The position numbers were made by a program, and so were the translations under genes. From IMG/VR virus record IMGVR_UViG_2706794688_000010: a stretch of 34,150 bases of DNA; one strand, 5' to 3'. This document shows positions 1,741 through 28,056 of the stretch, one piece after another; position 1 is the first letter of the stretch; each line of letters begins with the position of its first letter. Below the pieces are notes generated by a model. That model saw only the letters and a program-made list of their open reading frames with translations, was not told the origin of the DNA and searched no databases. The stretch comes from a virus. Its lineage: Duplodnaviria > Heunggongvirae > Uroviricota > Caudoviricetes.

Positions 1741-4700
1741 TTAACATTCCCCCATCACGTCGCATATTTAACAGATTGCCCTGCACCCGCTGATCAACCA
1801 TCCCCATAAGTGCTTTTATTGCCTGAGGGCCAATCTCTCCATTCTGGCCGTCATTTTGAATAGTGATTTGGTATACAGGGGCATAGGTAATATCTCCGCC
1901 TCCATTACCACTTTTACTATTAATAGCTCTGACACCAAGAGAACCATCGGAAGTTCGTGTTAATGGCATAATGGCTTCCGGTCCAGCCTCACCAAAAACA
2001 CCAGCCCCTTTTGCAAAAGCAAAAAATTGCGGGGAATCATAAATACCGTTCGAATACGTGCTCAATGACGGAGACTCATAAACACCGCCCTTTGCATTCG
2101 GAATAAATTTACTAATAGCACTCCCGATAGTTCCTAAAATCCCCCCAGAAGAACTGTTACTAATGCTGTCGAAAATCCCAGTAATTGAAGCCTTTAATGC
2201 TATTCGACTAAGATCCGAAATCACGGAAGTAGCGAAAGAACGAAAATTTGCCTTGCCTGTCGTGACAAAATCACCCAGCGCATCGGTCATCCCATCAAAC
2301 ATCTGAGTCGTGGTTGATTTTATCTGCTCACTGATATCCTTAGTGTCATCCAGCCAGTTATTGAATCCCTGGGAGGCACCACTAACCCAGTCTCCTGCCT
2401 GAATATCGAGCTGCTCGTTTTTCTGTCTGACAATTTCTTTTTCCCGTTCCAGAGCATCATTCAGAGCCTGCATTTTCTCTTGAAAAACATGATCTGACAT
2501 TCCACGGGATTTATCTGCATAGTCACGTTCAAGTTGCAGACGCTGATTGTTATATCCATGTTCAATCCGCAGTAATTCCTGCTGGCGTTGCTGATTTTTA
2601 TCGCCAACCCCATAACCAGCAATCTGAATATCATACCCCTGCTGACGATTATCAATCGAAGCCTGCAATGAATCACGCCATGCTGTTATTTCGGCGGATT
2701 CCTTGATTAGCCTGTTATTTTTTTCAATCGCAACATTTTTCTCCATCAACGTGGTTATTTCTTCCCGGTGTAAGAGAAGCGATTTCTGATCCTGGGTTAA
2801 TTTCGATGATGGTCGTGACTCTAGGTCGGCAATCCGCTGACGCCACTTAACCAGTTCCTGTTCAGAGGAACTTAATTTAACGGTCAACTCAGCTTGTGAA
2901 CTTAGTAACGCATTCTGTTGATTCAGATGATCAATCATTCGTTGGGCTGCATCATCAGAATAACCTTTCGCCTTTGGTTGCTTTGGATCTTTATAACGCT
3001 CATTTATTTGAGCGATAAGATTATTATATTCTTCCTTTGAATACTGATTCTTTAGCTTTTCCAGTTTTGCAAGTTCACTAGCTCTCTGCTGCTCCCGGGT
3101 CTGATATTGTTTTGAAAAGGCATCTGCTCTCTGTCTGAGTTCAATTCCTTCCTGTTGTCGCTTGTTGTAATCGTTTATTGATGAATTTAGTACGTCCTGA
3201 GCAATTTTTTCTGCTTGAAGTACGCCCAATTGCTGCTTTAATCGTGCCAGCCTTTTATTTTGAGCTCCGCCATCTCCAATGCCACCTAACCCGAAAACTC
3301 CGGGTCGGGTATTTTTTTCTATTTCATCAATTTGACGGAGAACATCTGAGATTTTTTGATCAAGGGAGGCCTCACGGCCAATATCCAGCATGGAATCCCA
3401 TGCCCATTTTGCGGAGTCTGCGACAGCTTTCCATGCAGTCTCAAGATAACCAAGATTTTCTTTAATCTGGTTGGTGCGCTGGATCATTGAGGATGAGTAT
3501 TCTTCTGTCGCAATGCGGGCGGCCTCCTGCTGGTTCCCTTCATCCTGTAGCGCCTTAATCTGGTTATAAGTCGCAAGTGTCAGAAAATGGTACTGATCAT
3601 TAAGTTTTGATATGGCACTGACAGGATCCTTTGCAATTTCATTGAAGTCATTAACCAGTTGTTCGGTTGATATTCCTGTTACTTCGCTCGTTTTTACTAT
3701 CGCTGTCGTCACTTGCTCCAGCGAACTGCTCGCTACCTTTCCCGAACGCACAAGCTGATTTAATACTGCCGCCGCAGCACCAGTTGTCGAATCAGCCGCA
3801 TTCCCGGCACGTTGAGCTATATCGCCCAATTGCCCGCTGGTTGTCCCCAACTGATTTCCGGTAAGAATAAGAGATTTATTAAATTCGTCCTGCTCCTGAG
3901 AGCCTTTATAGTAAGCCAGTCCTAAGACCCCAACGGCTGCTGCGGCCAGGGTAAAAGGATTAATTAATCCCAGCACATAAGAACCTACACCTTTGATCGC
4001 CGGGCCAATCCCACCGAACATATCTTTTAGCTGGCCGCCCTGCTGCATTAACACCATAAATGGCGACTGACCAGTGGACAACCCAACAACAATATCCGTC
4101 ATTTGTACAGGCAACATGCGCATAGCAAAAGCCGTTTGTTTTGCCGACATTCCGGTTTTGCTTAATTGTGATTGAGTAACCTCAAGCTCACTCCGCATAG
4201 CACGAAGTTTTCCAGAAAGCTCCTCATACATTTCAGGAGAAAGCATCCCCTTAGCTTTTGCTTCATTGAGCTGTTTCTGTTGTTCTACCAGACGATTAAA
4301 AGCAGTTCCGACAGGATCAAGTTGAGCAATCAGACGTTGCAAAGCAACAACCTGTTCATCATGCGCTTTTGCTGCTTCTCGCTCTGCCTGAGCCTCTCCG
4401 GTAAGCTCTCGCCGTGTTTCCTGTATTTTTCGGCTATAATTCTCAAACTGAGAACCATTTATTTTCCCGGATGCAAACGCAGCATTAAGTTCATCATGCT
4501 GTTGTTCAAGATTTCTTAGCGCCGCAGCCAGAGGGTCGATCTTGTCCAGCATTCTTTGAAAGGCCTGAGCCTGCGCTTCCTGCTGGGCGGCAGCAAGTTT
4601 TCCGGCCTTCTCGGCTTCTCTCTGCGCTTGCGCAACCCCGCTCAATTCCTCTGTGGTTTCATTAAGTTTACGGACAAGAAATTCATATTCTTCTTTATCA

Positions 4701-24078: not shown

Positions 24079-24881
24079 TTCTCAATCTCTCGATGGCGCA
24101 GCGCAGCAGATGCCAGTTGTTCAGGCTGACGAATAAAGTATAAATAAACTGGCTATGGTGTAAAGCCCCACATAGCATGAACAAACACTACATATCAAAT
24201 AGCTGGTACAAGGATAGAAATACGACACTTATTATTAAAANNNNNNNNNNNNNNNNNNNNNNNNNNNNNNNNNNNNNNNNNNNNNNNNNNNNNNNNNNNN
24301 NNNNNNNNNNNNNNNNNNNNNNNNNNNNNNNNNNNNNNNNNNNNNNNNNNNNNNNNNNNNNNNNNNNNNNNNNNNNNNNNNNNNNNNNNNNNNNNNNNNN
24401 NNNNNNNNNNNNNNNNNNNNNNNNNNNNNNNNNNNNNNNNNNNNNNNNNNNNNNNNNNNNNNNNNNNNNNNNNNNNNNNNNNNNNNNNNNNNNNNNNNNN
24501 NNNNNNNNNNACTCAAGTCATTAACATTTGATAAGATATATCTAAAAGGACGCCTTTACATTATTTATGCGTATATAATTTATTTATATACACAGTAAAG
24601 GTATCCTGGGAAAATATTTATCGTTAAAAAATACATCATAAATAATTAAGCTGAAATTTCAGAACACAACTAATACACACAATAAGGTTCAGTAACAGTA
24701 ATCTATGTGGACTACATCGAGATTTTTTGATTAAACTTTAATAACTTATTCCTAACACACAGAATGCATAAACTAAAAGTAAAACAAATAGTTATACGAA
24801 AAACAACCATATTTATTCTATCTTCTCCTCTAATCAACATATCAATTATGTGTTTCATAACAGCTTGACATAACCCTCCAA

Positions 24882-24904
24882 AAGATGCATTTTTAATGCA
24901 TGTT
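24882..24904 (+). promoter_or_regulatory. NsrR-type operator (11-1-11 inverted repeat) overlapping the promoter of the YeaR-like gene
   Basis: AAGATGCATTT-T-TAATGCATGTT; left half matches the NsrR half-site I recall (AAGATGCATTT), right half has 2 mismatches; a TTGACA hexamer sits at 24865-24870 and a GGAGGAGG RBS precedes the ATG at 24920. Confidence 0.5.
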
Positions 24905-24919
24905 TTGGAGGAGGTGGTT

Positions 24920-25258
24920 ATGACACACAAGAGAATTCCTAAAGATTGGGTAATCAAACGCTCAACTCCGTTCTTCACAAAAGAGAACGTACCTTCAGCG
25001 TTATTAACACATCATAATACAGCAGCAGGTGTTTTTGGGCAGTTGTGCGTAATGGAAGGCACTGTAACATATTATGGTTTTACTGATGAGAATGCTACTG
25101 AACCGGAGATAAAAGTAGTCATTAATGCTGGCGCTTTTGCAACAAGCCCACCACAATACTGGCACCGTGTTGAACTAAGCGATGATGCTCAGTTTAATAT
25201 TAACTTTTGGGTCGCTCCAGACTTTTCGGGCGAAAAAGTCTATAGCACCAAAAAATAG
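24920..25258 (+). CDS. YeaR-like protein (DUF1971, TehB N-terminal-like)
   Basis: 112 aa from the ATG with a strong RBS; ...RSTPFFTKENVPSALLTHHNTAAGVFGQLCVMEGTVTYYGFTDEN...YWHRVE...FNINFWVAPD resembles E. coli YeaR as I recall it; chromosomal yeaR is NsrR-regulated, consistent with the operator. Confidence 0.5.
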   Translation: MTHKRIPKDWVIKRSTPFFTKENVPSALLTHHNTAAGVFGQLCVMEGTVTYYGFTDENATEPEIKVVINAGAFATSPPQYWHRVELSDDAQFNINFWVAPDFSGEKVYSTKK

Positions 25259-25286
25259 ATGATCATATTAAAAATGCTTTAACAGT

Positions 25287-25326
25287 CAGACCCGGCAGGG
25301 CTATCCCCGACGGGTCTCATTTTTGT
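25287..25326 (+). terminator. Intrinsic terminator after the YeaR-like gene
   Basis: AGACCCG...CGGGTCT stem followed by CATTTTTGT. Confidence 0.5.
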
Positions 25327-25878
25327 AAATATATTGGTTCTACATTGACAGGAGACTTCAACCATAAGAAGTAATCTGAATACTTGAGCAATAAATTTAC
25401 TTAAGATTAATGAGCGCACCTTGCCGGACAAAGATAAACCAAGGTAACACCTTTTTTCTAGCCAGTATGTAATCAATCAGAAAGCCGCTCCATAAGAACA
25501 ACAGCAAGACAATAAATTGCCATTACAGCCGCAATAGCCAGCGCACATTTGAGAACCAGCACGACAACCCCCTGTATTAGACGCACACCAGTCCTGATAA
25601 ATATGAGGCTGTCTCGTCAGTGATTCAATACAACTATTGGGTATAGTTTCTGTGATTTTATTCTGTAGAAATGGAACACAACAACCAGTCACCACCAGCA
25701 CTTCCTTAAATGCTCTAAGTCAGAAACAAGCCAACATTTTAGTCCGCTTTGAGCGATCTGCAGACATTGCTAGCAGCCTTCTGTGTGAATTCTCAGGGAG
25801 CAGGTCGGCATAGCATCACGTTGAGGCTCTTACCCTACTTGTTCACACCAACCCTAACTCCACAGACTGATTCATAAA

Positions 25879-26880
25879 TTAGTAATCTGCGTGTTTCGCA
25901 CTTTTCAGAAATGCTTTCATATTTTCATTAGGTCGCTCAATTTCGAAGTTACTTCCATATAACTCTTGTAATTTTGGCCATAACTTACTTAATAACCCTC
26001 TCCTGCGATAAAATGGATGTATCCAAACGGTAGATAGGTACGGAGAATTTGCATTTGAATTGTTTATTGTGACCAGCCCAACTAAACATTGTCGATAACC
26101 ACTATTATCCATTGATTGTATTTCTTCGACGAATGGATACGCGATTACATCAGTCCAACCATGATCGGTTGTATCCCATTGCATTCCGTCATGACATTCC
26201 TTCGACTGATAGCGGCGTAAAGCTACACACGCGAGCTTTTGCCAATCTGGAGAATTAATTGTGATCTCTTCATCGTATGACGCGCCTATTGGAGCGGGTA
26301 TTGGTCTGATTAATCCAGCATGGCATTCATCATAGAACTTCATGTTTCCCTCAGAAACGTTGTGTACGTTGGGTTGCTCCATGTGTGCGCCATTCAAAAA
26401 TAGCTCTGATAGTAGTGTATCTACACTGTAATCTTTATTGATTATTGTCGGCTTAGAGTTTTTCTTATTAAGGCCGCGAGTAACGATTTTTTGATCAATG
26501 TTAACAACATGGAATAATCCGTCGGGGAGGCTAGCGAACCACGATGGGGCATCGGACCAGAATAGCATGCCTTTTGTACTTCTTAAGAGTTTAATTAAGT
26601 TAATACAAGCTTCTTCACTAGTCTTGCCGTTGATGCGAAGTATGTTAGGACTAAAGTAATATTCATCCATATCAGGGAATGCAGCTTCGCAAAACTCCTG
26701 TACATAATTTAGCACCTGGATTCTACAGAGATCATCATAGCTGGTAATAACTAAGGGGGTATCTTCATTACTATTATGATTATCAATAATGCAATCTATA
26801 GCGAGACTTACTGCTTTGCGTATCACTTCAGTTGAATCTAACGACTCTAAAAATTTTGTCTTTCGTGTGCGAATATCCAT
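25879..26880 (-). CDS. Hypothetical protein, 333 aa, possible C-terminal GNAT-like acetyltransferase motif
   Basis: Second gene of an AT-rich two-gene cassette, 16 nt after the upstream gene; C-terminal ...CLVGLVTINN...YLSTVWIHPFYRRRGLLSKLW... resembles GNAT motif A (h-x-V-h-P-x-Y-R-x-x-G); motif-level only. Confidence 0.55.
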   Translation of the reverse strand: MDIRTRKTKFLESLDSTEVIRKAVSLAIDCIIDNHNSNEDTPLVITSYDDLCRIQVLNYVQEFCEAAFPDMDEYYFSPNILRINGKTSEEACINLIKLLRSTKGMLFWSDAPSWFASLPDGLFHVVNIDQKIVTRGLNKKNSKPTIINKDYSVDTLLSELFLNGAHMEQPNVHNVSEGNMKFYDECHAGLIRPIPAPIGASYDEEITINSPDWQKLACVALRRYQSKECHDGMQWDTTDHGWTDVIAYPFVEEIQSMDNSGYRQCLVGLVTINNSNANSPYLSTVWIHPFYRRRGLLSKLWPKLQELYGSNFEIERPNENMKAFLKSAKHADY

Positions 26881-26895
26881 GTATGACCTGCGCTA

Positions 26896-27918
26896 TTAAA
26901 ATTCATGAATGAACGGTTTGTCATCTGGTTGCAAAATGGTGGTTTTATTCGTTGCTACATTTAAACTGTTGTAGAGCATAATTGCCAGGTTCGATGCATT
27001 TTCAATCAGCGTTTCAAGATCCTGGTCTGTAATCACTACGAGGTTCCCTTCTTTATCCTTTCCACCACGATGCACTAAGTGATTTCGATTGAGGGTTGCC
27101 AATTCAATAGCTTCTATCGGACAGTCTTTTTGTACTTTTATATCGAATGTAGCTTCATAGCGGTCGATTACCTTTTTAGTGCTATGCCAGCTTGCACTGA
27201 TCAAGTGTTCCTTGATTGACCTGATTAGCTCTCCCCTAATTTTCTCGATGGGTTCACCCTTGAAAGGCAACGCAGCAATATCTTTGCTTACTTTAAATTC
27301 AGTCTTACCTTTTTCTATACAATTGGCTATGTAGACATCATCTTTCTCTATAGAATTAATGAATAGCTCAACATAAAGCGTTTCCAAAGCTGTAATAACA
27401 TTCGTGTAGAGCAAACTAAGCAAGTGGTTTTTTTGCTGTTGTTCAGTTTTATCTTTTGCAAGTTTTTTTATTTTATCGATATTATCAATGAATTTTAAAT
27501 ACGGATTACCGGAAGACGTTACAGCGTCGTAGATATCATCATCGTACCAATCATCTATATTATTTGAGTTTCCAGACCAGTCAAAACATTGTGTTTGTAA
27601 TTCATCTACTAATTCCTCAATATACTCAGATTTAACATATTGACCGAAGATGGATTGTAGTTCTTCGCTCGCATCATACGGCCCGCCATATATGTAAGCA
27701 TAGCCACCTTCTCTACTTTCATACGGACAAGCATTTGCCGGATCTTCAAAGTTTTCAAAGAACCAGTTTTTCATTACTTCGAGTTGATCTTTTTTGCTTA
27801 TGTATTTTAAAGATTTTAGTGGAACTTTCTTTCCATTAACCTCGAAAACAATTTTCACGATGTAACGCTCCCTTGTATCAATTGCGCAACTATTATACCA
27901 CAGCGAAATACAGGGCAT
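26896..27918 (-). CDS. Hypothetical protein, ~341 aa, possible HEPN-like Rx4H motif
   Basis: ATG at 27918 preceded by AAGGAGG (6-nt spacer); an alternative GTG at 27855 follows an internal TGGTATAAT and AAGGGAG; C-terminal ...ATLNRNHLVHRGG... contains R-N-x3-H; acidic central region; low GC. Confidence 0.55.
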   Translation of the reverse strand: MPCISLWYNSCAIDTRERYIVKIVFEVNGKKVPLKSLKYISKKDQLEVMKNWFFENFEDPANACPYESREGGYAYIYGGPYDASEELQSIFGQYVKSEYIEELVDELQTQCFDWSGNSNNIDDWYDDDIYDAVTSSGNPYLKFIDNIDKIKKLAKDKTEQQQKNHLLSLLYTNVITALETLYVELFINSIEKDDVYIANCIEKGKTEFKVSKDIAALPFKGEPIEKIRGELIRSIKEHLISASWHSTKKVIDRYEATFDIKVQKDCPIEAIELATLNRNHLVHRGGKDKEGNLVVITDQDLETLIENASNLAIMLYNSLNVATNKTTILQPDDKPFIHEF

Positions 27919-28056
27919 AACCTGCCTCCTTAAACTAACATACCATGAGCCAGCAATGTCCGCTATTGGCACAAAGCGGACAACCACGCTAGCTCTCCCC
28001 TGTGCCAGAAAAATGTCAATTTACATATGAACTAATGCTCTTTGATCTAGTAACGT

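What the first reader, a model, noticed from the sequence alone, without database searches (positions are those of the whole stretch)
24865..25326. Plus-strand YeaR-like moron controlled by a near-consensus NsrR operator: a likely nitric-oxide-responsive prophage gene
The only plus-strand gene in the nin region has a strong RBS, its own terminator and low GC. Its promoter is overlapped by AAGATGCATTT-T-TAATGCATGTT, which fits the 11-1-11 NsrR site, and the product resembles YeaR, a chromosomal NsrR regulon member. The prophage appears to have captured a host stress gene together with its operator, giving the lysogen an NO-inducible function expressed independently of the phage programme.
Basis: partly seen in the sequence, partly recalled or inferred. 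Interest (0 to 1): 0.55.

Follow-up and report, generated by a model that had tools for sequence, protein, structure and literature searches.

The report
Prophage gene under host NO sensor
A small gene carried by an E. coli lambda-like prophage is a copy of a nitric-oxide-stress gene known from the Salmonella chromosome, still attached to the binding site of the host's NO-sensing repressor NsrR, so lysogens probably gain an NO-inducible stress protein that standard E. coli lacks.

Summary
ORF 24920-25258 (+) encodes a 112-aa DUF1971 protein (Pfam E=2e-26). The 23-mer AAGATGCATTTTTAATGCATGTT (24882-24904) scores about 27-28 bits on an NsrR matrix built from published CFT073 sites. Only ytfE scores higher, the next best hit in the window is 12 bits, and about 1e-6 to 4e-5 such hits are expected by chance.

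The interpretation needs one correction. The gene is not a copy of E. coli yeaR (41% identity). It belongs to the separate DUF1971 subfamily of Salmonella STM1808 (79%), Kluyvera/Leclercia (80-82%) and Vibrio fischeri PDB 3DL3. In 52 of 53 enterobacterial species the chromosomal orthologue has a 20-30-bit NsrR site centred 26-38 bp before its ATG, and in the representatives aligned the -35 sits at the same spacing. Gene and operator were therefore captured together, and the E. coli K-12 chromosome has no copy at the corresponding position.

The gene sits in a variable cargo slot upstream of ninB in Rac-type prophages, in 466 of 5,426 complete E. coli genomes, and is under purifying selection.

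NO and NsrR dependence is inferred, not shown. This is a new member of a known kind and of moderate interest.

Unexplained extras: the inverted repeat extends to the start codon, and the operator region is more variable than synonymous sites.

The parts
24865..24870 (+). -35 hexamer TTGACA
   Evidence: Read directly from the sequence. Invariant in 40 prophage alleles, pi=0. Chromosomal orthologues have TTTACA at the same distance, 11 bp, from the operator.
24882..24904 (.). NsrR-type operator, 11-1-11 inverted repeat AAGATGCATTT-T-TAATGCATGTT
   Evidence: Scores 27-28 bits on the matrix from 26 published sites, second only to ytfE. Chance expectation in the window is 1e-6 to 4e-5. An equivalent site lies upstream of 52 of 53 enterobacterial orthologues.
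24888..24893 (+). Inferred -10 hexamer CATTTT (17-bp spacer), inside the left half-site
   Evidence: Inferred from spacing. Orthologues have TATTTT or TATATT at this position. Not called by the generic promoter scan. The transcription start is unmapped.
24910..24915 (+). Shine-Dalgarno GGAGGT
   Evidence: GGAGG ends 5 nt before the ATG. GGAG is conserved in orthologues.
24920..25258 (+). CDS, 112-aa DUF1971 (TehB-like cupin) protein of the STM1808 subfamily
   Evidence: Pfam PF09313, E=2.3e-26. PDB 3DL3 at E=3.5e-59 and YeaR 3BB6 at 1.6e-24. 79% identical to the Salmonella dsbB-adjacent protein. pN/pS is 0.09-0.2 against the diverged alleles.
25288..25326 (+). Intrinsic-terminator-like hairpin (25288-25317) followed by a T-run
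   Evidence: Fold of -17.1 kcal/mol, z=-2.5. The diverged allele L001 keeps an equivalent hairpin plus TCTTTT although DNA homology stops at the stop codon.
24869..24922 (.). Extended inverted repeat enclosing the operator: CATAACC+CTCCAAAA ... TTTTGGAG+GGTTATG, reaching the SD region and start codon (unexplained)
   Evidence: As RNA it folds at -25.5 kcal/mol, z=-6.3. Covariation among 13 alleles is not significant. Symmetry beyond the 23-mer also appears in Citrobacter and Salmonella orthologues.

Best explanation
The finding is a self-contained lysogenic-conversion cassette in the variable cargo slot upstream of the ninB-like gene of a Rac-type lambdoid prophage. It consists of a sigma-70 promoter, an NsrR operator, an SD sequence, a 112-aa DUF1971 cupin protein and a terminator. 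It is transcribed against the direction of the phage early and late genes.

The cassette is orthologous to the chromosomal STM1808-type unit of other Enterobacteriaceae, and promoter and operator came with the gene.

Proposed mechanism (inferred):
1. In the lysogen, the host's [4Fe-4S] NsrR dimer occupies the 23-bp operator. The operator covers the -10 and the start site, so RNA polymerase is excluded.
2. Nitric oxide nitrosylates the cluster and NsrR leaves the DNA.
3. The gene is then transcribed independently of the phage repressor.

By homology to STM1808, the protein is a small metal-binding (reported as zinc) cupin that helps growth under nitrosative stress. Its biochemical activity is unknown.

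What is shown here: the sequence features, family membership, orthology, conservation of the operator, cargo-slot polymorphism and purifying selection. What is inferred: NsrR binding, NO induction and benefit to the lysogen.
For: - Family: DUF1971 profile match.
- Subfamily: 75-82% identity to the STM1808-type subfamily against 41% to YeaR. PDB 3DL3 is the closest solved structure.
- Salmonella copy: it sits at dadA-ycgB-fadR-nhaB-dsbB-[gene], which I recall (from memory) as the position of STM1808 in LT2. STM1808 is cited as an NsrR-regulon and virulence gene (PMC7527575). A 'tehB homolog' was predicted in the enterobacterial NsrR regulon in 2005 (PMC1274295).
- Operator strength: 27-28 bits, above nearly all validated sites, and P of about 1e-9 or lower per position.
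- Operator conservation: 52 of 53 enterobacterial orthologues have a site of at least 20 bits at 26-38 bp from the ATG. Only 6 of 3,731 background windows reach 17 bits. The operator is the most conserved block of the upstream alignment, and the -35 spacing is conserved.
- Gene neighbourhood elsewhere: in Neptunomonas the gene lies downstream of an NsrR-type site, behind an Fe-S protein gene, between ytfE and sufB. In Parendozoicomonas it follows a SAM methyltransferase behind two NsrR-type sites.
- Phage context: NinB-like, DUF1364 and Q-like genes on one side and Ren-like and replication genes on the other, all on the opposite strand.
- Cargo slot: it holds hokD, or an ATPase plus O-methyltransferase, in prophages whose NinB-like protein has the same RefSeq accession. 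The ninB flank is found in 1,330 genomes and the cassette in 466.
- Real phages: the cassette is present in three deposited phage genomes.
- Selection: pN/pS of 0.09-0.2 against the diverged alleles.
- All 13 promoter alleles keep a site of 17.7-28.6 bits at the same position.
Against: - No experimental datum on this E. coli gene was found in the searchable literature.
- The -10 (CATTTT) is weak, and the generic scan did not call the promoter. The transcription start is unmapped.
- The commonest prophage allele has a weaker left half-site (AACACGCATTT, 20.7 bits).
- The operator region is about three times more variable than synonymous sites, which is not what a strictly conserved operator would show.
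- The 28%-GC upstream region could be H-NS-silenced (inference).
- The primary STM1808 paper could not be read. Its details (zinc binding, H32/H82) rest on my memory.
Confidence: 0.8

Rival explanations
1. The cassette is intact, but in E. coli lysogens it is not meaningfully NsrR- or NO-controlled. The weak -10, the AT-rich (H-NS-prone) surroundings or the degraded half-site of common alleles would leave it silent or constitutively low. The operator would then be an inherited relic.
For: The -10 is only CATTTT, and the promoter is not called by the scan. The commonest allele has two substitutions in the left half-site, giving 20.7 bits. Diversity in the operator is higher than at synonymous sites. 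The upstream DNA is 28% GC.
Against: Every allele keeps the core GCATT..AATGCAT/AATACAT and scores 17.7-28.6 bits, within the range of validated sites such as hmp (19.1) and yeaR (22.8). The -35 is invariant. The protein is under purifying selection, which implies that it is expressed.
Confidence: 0.12
2. The palindrome is primarily a nucleic-acid structure rather than a protein operator. One possibility is an RNA fold-back that hides the SD and AUG in read-in transcripts; another is a cruciform.
For: The inverted repeat extends 15 bp per arm beyond the 23-mer and includes the start codon. As RNA it folds at -25.5 kcal/mol, z=-6.3. Excess symmetry at flank positions +1 to +7 across 66 operator regions. 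Two compensatory-looking changes among alleles.
Against: Kluyvera, Leclercia and Klebsiella orthologues keep the NsrR consensus bases without extended symmetry, so base identity is what is conserved, not only pairing. The formal covariation test is not significant. The left arm starts inside the -35, so the gene's own transcript cannot form the hairpin. The two roles are not mutually exclusive.
Confidence: 0.05
3. The site is bound by a regulator other than NsrR, such as another Rrf2-family protein or a phage-encoded protein.
For: Only sequence evidence links the site to NsrR. Rrf2 proteins share similar operator architectures (general knowledge).
Against: The site matches the E. coli NsrR matrix better than almost all validated NsrR sites. 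The Salmonella orthologue is reported as NsrR-regulated (PMC7527575). None of the window ORFs scanned against Pfam or PHROGs matched an Rrf2-type regulator.
Confidence: 0.03

Closest known systems
Salmonella enterica STM1808 (NsrR-regulated DUF1971 protein; Karlinsey et al. 2012, Mol Microbiol 85:1179, not readable here; cited in PMC7527575)
   Same: 79% identical, with the same length class of 112-113 aa. His32 and His82 are invariant. It is a single-gene unit with an NsrR 11-1-11 site just upstream: AAGGTGTATATTAAATACACCTT, 25.6 bits. It has the same SD-ATG layout.
   Different: The Salmonella gene is core-chromosomal, between dsbB and the min operon, not phage-borne. Its operator centre is 38 bp from the ATG rather than 26 bp. 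It has GC3 of 58% against 34% here. There is no extension of the palindrome to the start codon.
E. coli K-12 yeaR (yeaR-yoaG operon)
   Same: The same Pfam family, DUF1971. It is a known NsrR regulon member with an 11-1-11 site (PMC5320621).
   Different: Only 41% identity. It forms an operon with yoaG. Its NsrR site lies well upstream, more than 60 bp before the ATG, and scores lower at 22.8 bits. It is reported to be NarL-activated (title of Lin 2007, cited in PMC5320621). Its promoter shows no evident similarity to this one.
Vibrio fischeri 'tellurite resistance protein B', PDB 3DL3
   Same: The closest solved structure, E=3.5e-59, aligned over residues 1-111. It belongs to the same subfamily.
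   Different: It is chromosomal, and there is no NsrR-type site upstream in A. fischeri ES114 (best score 7.4 bits). It is a structural-genomics entry with no assigned function.
Haemophilus influenzae TehB (PDB 3M70; NCBIfam PRK12335)
   Same: Its N-terminal domain is DUF1971.
   Different: There the domain is fused to a SAM methyltransferase, which is absent here. The match scores 49 bits against a cut-off of 303, so this gene is not a TehB.
Phage morons regulated by host factors (for example lambda bor/lom, Gifsy-2 sodCI, Fur-controlled stx; from my own knowledge)
   Same: An autonomous promoter-gene-terminator unit inserted between phage modules, differing in composition, and presumed to be expressed from the prophage under a host regulator.
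   Different: Here the host regulator would be the NO sensor NsrR, and the cassette has clear chromosomal orthologues that carry the same operator.
IS10 'fold-back inhibition' of read-in transcripts (Davis, Simons & Kleckner 1985; from my own knowledge)
   Same: An inverted repeat whose 5' arm lies upstream of the element's own start site, so only externally initiated transcripts could pair and hide the SD and AUG.
   Different: This is purely an analogy for the extended repeat at 24869-24922. No read-in promoter was demonstrated, and covariation is not significant.

Membership tests
Pfam PF09313 (DUF1971 / TehB-like) | Full-length profile match above the gathering score | tested here: met
   92 bits against a cut-off of 23.1, profile positions 1-80 of 80. 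Solved relatives are 3DL3, 3BB6 and 3M70.
STM1808-type DUF1971 subfamily | Orthology-level similarity to the Salmonella dsbB-adjacent protein, clearly above similarity to YeaR | tested here: met
   79% against 41% identity. In an NJ tree it groups with enterobacterial chromosomal copies, sister to the Kluyvera/Leclercia clade; the tree has no support values. The Salmonella context is dsbB-[gene].
STM1808-type DUF1971 subfamily | Conserved His32 and His82 (reported zinc ligands; this attribution rests on my memory of Karlinsey 2012) | tested here: met
   H32 and H82 are invariant in 12 aligned sequences, including YeaR.
STM1808-type DUF1971 subfamily | Metal binding and contribution to growth under nitrosative stress | not testable with these tools
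   Needs purified protein (ICP-MS) and mutant phenotypes.
NsrR regulon (E. coli / enterobacteria) | An 11-1-11 inverted repeat matching the NsrR weight matrix at the level of validated sites | tested here: met
   27-28 bits. Among the training sites only ytfE is higher. P is 4e-11 to 1e-9 per position.
NsrR regulon (E. coli / enterobacteria) | Operator overlaps the core promoter (repression by occlusion) | tested here: inconclusive
   There is a consensus -35 at 24865-24870, 17 bp before CATTTT inside the operator, and orthologues keep the same spacing. However, the -10 is weak, the generic scan does not call the promoter, and the transcription start is unmapped.
NsrR regulon (E. coli / enterobacteria) | Operator conserved upstream of orthologues (phylogenetic footprint) | tested here: met
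   52 of 53 enterobacterial species have a site of at least 20 bits at 26-38 bp from the ATG. The one exception has a 1-bp deletion in the spacer. In the background, 6 of 3,731 windows reach 17 bits.
NsrR regulon (E. coli / enterobacteria) | NsrR binding in vivo or in vitro, and derepression by NO or in an nsrR mutant | not testable with these tools
   No data on this gene were found in the searchable literature. K-12's Rac remnant is not known to carry this region (Rac gene content from memory), so K-12 ChIP studies could not see it.
Phage moron / lysogenic-conversion cassette | Lies inside a prophage, between conserved phage modules, on the opposite strand | tested here: met
   It sits between the NinB-like/DUF1364/Q-like genes and the Ren-like and replication genes, all on the - strand. 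It is also present in three deposited phage genomes.
Phage moron / lysogenic-conversion cassette | Presence/absence polymorphism among otherwise near-identical phages | tested here: met
   The ninB flank is in 1,330 genomes and the cassette in 466. The same NinB protein accession is found next to hokD, or next to an ATPase plus O-methyltransferase. The 3' homology breaks at the stop codon in one allele class.
Phage moron / lysogenic-conversion cassette | Own promoter and terminator | tested here: met
   Promoter elements as above. The terminator hairpin plus T-run at 25288-25326 is kept in a diverged allele. Function is inferred from sequence only.
yeaR-yoaG operon (orthologue of E. coli yeaR) | Orthology-level identity to YeaR and a downstream yoaG | tested here: not met
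   41% identity. No downstream + strand ORF precedes the terminator. The promoter shows no evident similarity to yeaR's.

The most novel reading that the evidence does not exclude
The cassette may be more than cargo. It would be an NO-gated promoter that fires head-on into the prophage's early (pR-type) transcription path, between the replication genes and the Q-like antiterminator. An extended fold-back (24869-24922) would silence translation of any read-in transcript. Under this reading the phage uses the host NsrR signal in one of two ways. It could couple inflammation-derived NO to the lysis-lysogeny outcome through transcriptional interference. Alternatively, on replication, the amplified high-affinity operator could titrate the scarce NsrR and derepress the host NO regulon. 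The unusually fast evolution of the operator region would then reflect tuning of that switch.
Probability: 0.07. Interest if true: 0.7.

Novelty: new member of a known kind. Interest (0 to 1): 0.42.

Why it matters
It would be a documented case of a temperate phage carrying a member of the host's nitric-oxide (NsrR) regulon with the operator intact. That plugs a horizontally acquired gene straight into an existing stress circuit.

About 9% of complete E. coli genomes, and at least one Shigella genome, carry it. Through the phage they gain the STM1808-type protein, which is reported to aid Salmonella growth under nitrosative stress and in mice. E. coli K-12 has no copy at the corresponding chromosomal position.

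K-12's Rac remnant is not known to carry this region (my recollection of its gene content), so K-12-based NsrR regulon maps would have missed the site.

The claim is easy to test with a reporter fusion in an nsrR mutant. The many natural operator alleles, from 17.7 to 28.6 bits, form a ready-made affinity series.

Tried and rejected
- **yeaR origin, rejected.** The protein is 41% identical to K-12 YeaR, and the promoter shows no evident similarity.
- **Vibrionaceae donor, rejected.** This was suggested by the 75-80% hits. The NJ tree puts the prophage clade with enterobacterial copies, and only 2 of 27 non-enterobacterial loci have an NsrR site directly upstream.
- **Primary STM1808 paper.** It is not held under DOI, PMC id or PubMed id. 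The mBio 2018 zinc paper does not mention the gene.
- **Literature on the E. coli gene.** Searches by protein accession, by PHROG id and by 'DUF1971' found nothing relevant.
- **Generic promoter and terminator scan.** It called neither the promoter nor the terminator. Both were assessed by hand, by folding and by orthologue alignment instead.
- **Covariation test of the extended hairpin on 13 alleles.** Not significant: 2 pairs with changes on both sides against 1.2±0.8 in shuffles.
- **Rfam on the 2-kb region.** Only a chance miRNA-like hairpin hit on the palindrome, E=0.13.
- **PADLOC on the protein and the two neighbouring unknown genes.** No hits.
- **The 5' homology break at 24856 in two genomes.** It turned out to be IS3-family insertions, not a mosaic joint.
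Full report
**Observation.**
- TTGACA lies at 24865-24870.
- The 23-mer AAGATGCATTTTTAATGCATGTT lies at 24882-24904.
- GGAGG lies at 24910-24914, 5 nt before an ATG at 24920.
- An ORF runs to 25258 (112 aa).
- A hairpin at 25288-25317 is followed by CAUUUUUGU (-17.1 kcal/mol, z=-2.5).

I built a palindromised weight matrix from the 26 distinct 11-1-11 NsrR sites listed for E. coli CFT073 (Mehta et al. 2015, PMC5320621, Table 4). The 23-mer scores 26.95 bits with the window's base composition as background and 27.8 bits with a uniform background. Among the training sites only ytfE (30.3) is higher. hmp scores 19.1 and yeaR 22.8. The next best position in the 34-kb window scores 12.25. The exact probability of such a score is 4e-11 to 1e-9 per position, depending on background composition. 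That gives 1e-6 to 4e-5 expected hits in the window. The site is not a chance match.

**The protein.** The ORF matches Pfam DUF1971 over the whole domain (92 bits, cut-off 23.1). PHROGs holds it as an unannotated family, phrog_34268. It is only 41% identical to E. coli K-12 YeaR. It is 75-82% identical to a distinct subfamily:
- Kluyvera, Pantoea, Enterobacter and Leclercia at 80-82%;
- Salmonella at 79%;
- Klebsiella, Raoultella and Citrobacter at 76-81%;
- many Vibrionaceae at 75-80%, including the Vibrio fischeri protein solved as PDB 3DL3 (E=3.5e-59).

The Salmonella enterica copy sits in the core chromosome in the order dadA-ycgB-fadR-nhaB-dsbB-[gene]-...-minCDE. I recall that position as LT2 locus STM1808, though the locus numbering is from memory. 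STM1808 is cited as an NsrR-regulon gene with a role in virulence (PMC7527575).

From memory of the Karlinsey et al. 2012 abstract, STM1808 is a zinc protein that needs H32 and H82. That paper could not be opened here. Both histidines are invariant in my alignment.

Rodionov et al. 2005 had already predicted a 'tehB homolog' in the NsrR regulon of enterobacteria and Photobacterium (PMC1274295). Gilberthorpe et al. 2007 tested the genuine tehB and found no regulation (PMC2884951).

**Comparative test of the operator.** I fetched 80 species-representative loci and scanned the DNA upstream of each orthologue, first over 250 bp and then over 150 bp.
- In 52 of 53 Enterobacterales loci there is an NsrR-type site of at least 20 bits (median 29). 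Its centre lies 26-38 bp before the ATG.
- The single exception has a 1-bp deletion in the central spacer.
- Only 2 of 27 non-enterobacterial loci have such a site directly upstream.
- In control 153-bp windows from the same loci, 6 of 3,731 reach 17 bits.

Some of those control hits are informative. In Neptunomonas the gene lies behind an NsrR-type site and an Fe-S protein gene, between ytfE and sufB. In Parendozoicomonas it follows a SAM methyltransferase behind two sites.

In the upstream alignment the operator is the best-conserved block. A -35 (TTTACA or TTGACA) lies exactly 11 bp upstream of it in both the prophage and the Kluyvera-type copies. That places a -10 (TATTTT, or CATTTT here) inside the left half-site. 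The Kluyvera and Leclercia copies lie among ordinary chromosomal genes (murQ/PTS/RpiR, fimbrial genes, DUF554, an Orn/Lys/Arg decarboxylase) and not in prophages.

The prophage cassette is therefore an orthologue of a chromosomal gene-plus-operator unit. The source was not yeaR, however, and K-12 is not known to have a DUF1971 gene beside dsbB (K-12 gene order from memory).

**Phage context.** The window is a Rac-type lambdoid prophage; an identical copy is integrated next to ttcA. All neighbouring genes are on the - strand:
- on one side, NinB-like DUF1367, DUF1364, a Q-like DUF1133 protein, TolA-like proteins and lysis genes;
- on the other, two unknown genes (333 and 363 aa), Ren-like DUF977, DUF1627, a DnaC-like loader, a replication initiator and YdaT.

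The 901-bp region occurs in 466 of 5,426 complete E. coli genomes, in at least one Shigella genome, in 35 near-identical IMG/VR viral contigs and in three deposited phage genomes. The adjacent ninB flank occurs in 1,330 genomes.

Prophages whose NinB-like protein has the same RefSeq accession carry other cargo in this slot. One has hokD. An O157:H7 strain has an ATPase plus an O-methyltransferase. On the 3' side, homology between alleles breaks at the stop codon, at about 25632 or at about 25756. These are the marks of a moron in a cargo hot spot.

The ORF's GC is 41% (GC3 34%), against 46% for the window and GC3 of 44-69% in most enterobacterial orthologues.

**Population data.** Between the window and the diverged alleles pN/pS is 0.09-0.2, so the protein is under purifying selection. 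Thirteen promoter alleles were seen. All keep the core GCATT..AATGCAT (or AATACAT) and score 17.7-28.6 bits. The commonest has AACACGCATTT on the left and scores 20.7 bits.

Unexpectedly, nucleotide diversity from -49 to -1 (spacer, operator and 5' UTR) is 0.09-0.13. It is 0.032 at third codon positions and 0 in the -35. The window and allele L085 differ at 1 of 339 coding positions but at 5 of 62 promoter positions.

**Mechanism.** The most likely reading (confidence about 0.8) has three steps.
1. Host NsrR occupies the operator across the -10 and the start site and blocks initiation.
2. NO destroys its cluster and relieves repression.
3. The lysogen then makes a small metal-binding cupin that helps it cope with nitrosative stress, independently of the phage programme.

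The binding, the induction and the phenotype are inferred from homology and conservation, not shown here. The main rival (about 0.12) is that the cassette is intact but effectively not NsrR-controlled in E. coli, because of the weak -10, the AT-rich surroundings and the weakened common allele. A purely structural role for the palindrome, or control by a different regulator, are minor rivals.

**Unexplained feature.** In the prophage alleles the inverted repeat runs well beyond the 23-mer. CATAACC (24869-24875) plus CTCCAAAA (24876-24883) pairs with TTTTGGAG (24903-24910) plus GGTTATG (24916-24922, which includes the start codon). As RNA this folds at -25.5 kcal/mol, z=-6.3.

The left arm begins inside the -35, so the gene's own transcript would lack it. 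Only read-in transcripts could fold, which recalls IS10 fold-back inhibition. Two allele pairs look compensatory (C-G to A-T at two positions), but the formal test is not significant.

Citrobacter, Salmonella and Yokenella orthologues also extend the palindrome by 8-11 bp, each with a different flank sequence. Kluyvera and Klebsiella do not. Across 66 distinct operator regions, flank positions +1 to +7 show more symmetric complementarity than column shuffles. That control ignores phylogeny. Palindrome-driven template-switch mutation is an alternative to selection, and it could also explain the high local diversity.

**Novelty.** The family, its NsrR control in Salmonella and host-regulated morons are all known. 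A phage-borne copy that carries the operator into E. coli appears not to have been described in the literature I could search. I class it as a new member of a known kind, with interest of about 0.4.

Noticed in passing
window 24869-24922: The inverted repeat extends 15 bp per arm beyond the NsrR 23-mer, from inside the -35 to the start codon (CATAACC/GGTTATG outer helix). As RNA it folds at -25.5 kcal/mol, z=-6.3. Only read-in transcripts could form it. There are two compensatory-looking allele changes, but the covariation test is not significant.
   Followed up: partly
window 24871-24919 (positions -49 to -1), against loci L001, L002, L004, L084-L117 and L120: The spacer, operator and 5' UTR are about three times more variable (pi 0.09-0.13) than third codon positions of the gene (0.032). 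The -35 is invariant. The window and L085 differ at 1 of 339 CDS sites but at 5 of 62 promoter sites. Regulatory tuning, recombination or palindrome-driven mutation could explain this.
   Followed up: partly
L027, L030, L033, L044, L048, L050, L060, L121 (operator regions upstream of position 4001 or 6001): Citrobacter, Yokenella and Salmonella enterica chromosomal orthologues have 39-43-bp near-perfect palindromes around the NsrR site, and the flanks differ between species (ggcatctat/atagatgcc, ggcatttat/ataaatgcc, ggcacctat/ataggtgcc, gtgattaa/ttaatcac). Symmetry beyond the 23-mer exceeds column shuffles at flank positions +1 to +7.
   Followed up: partly
L005, L009, L012, L021, L026, L057 (about 45-65 bp upstream of the operator); window 24843-24862: A Fur-box-like sequence (for example GATAATGAGATTCATTATC in Kluyvera) abuts the -35 in Kluyvera, Leclercia, Buttiauxella, Pseudescherichia and Photobacterium orthologues. 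The prophage copy has only a degenerate remnant. This suggests dual Fur and NsrR control of the chromosomal genes.
   Followed up: no
window 24241-24510 (N-masked), equivalent to L002 19642-19911: In an identical genome the masked stretch holds an unannotated + strand ORF with an SD sequence. It encodes a 28-aa hydrophobic peptide, MENNKFAHLAPFLSVILFACCFIWALFL, and could be a small membrane toxin-like gene upstream of the cassette.
   Followed up: no
L124 3681-4909 and L125 3809-4929 (junction equivalent to window ~24856): Two differently annotated IS3-family elements are inserted at the same point, 9 bp upstream of the -35, in unrelated strains (CPww7 and AR_0128). The promoter, operator and gene are left intact. 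In AR_0128 a second IS3 follows the gene.
   Followed up: no
window 25879-27987 (- strand): Two adjacent genes of 333 and 363 aa have no Pfam or PADLOC match and only unannotated PHROG families (phrog_16994, phrog_17908). GC is 38%, and they are replaced by other genes in strain LD39-1. They are probably another cargo cassette, possibly a defence system.
   Followed up: partly
L076 1911-6596; L069 3315-4336: In Neptunomonas the DUF1971 gene lies between ytfE (RIC) and sufB, behind NsrR-type sites and an Fe-S protein gene. In Parendozoicomonas it follows a SAM methyltransferase behind two NsrR-type sites, which echoes the fused TehB of Haemophilus.
   Followed up: partly
window 25484-25538 (- strand): Two terminator-like hairpins on the - strand lie between the 333-aa gene and the DUF1971 gene, so the two convergent units each appear to end in the 25.3-25.5 kb spacer.
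   Followed up: no
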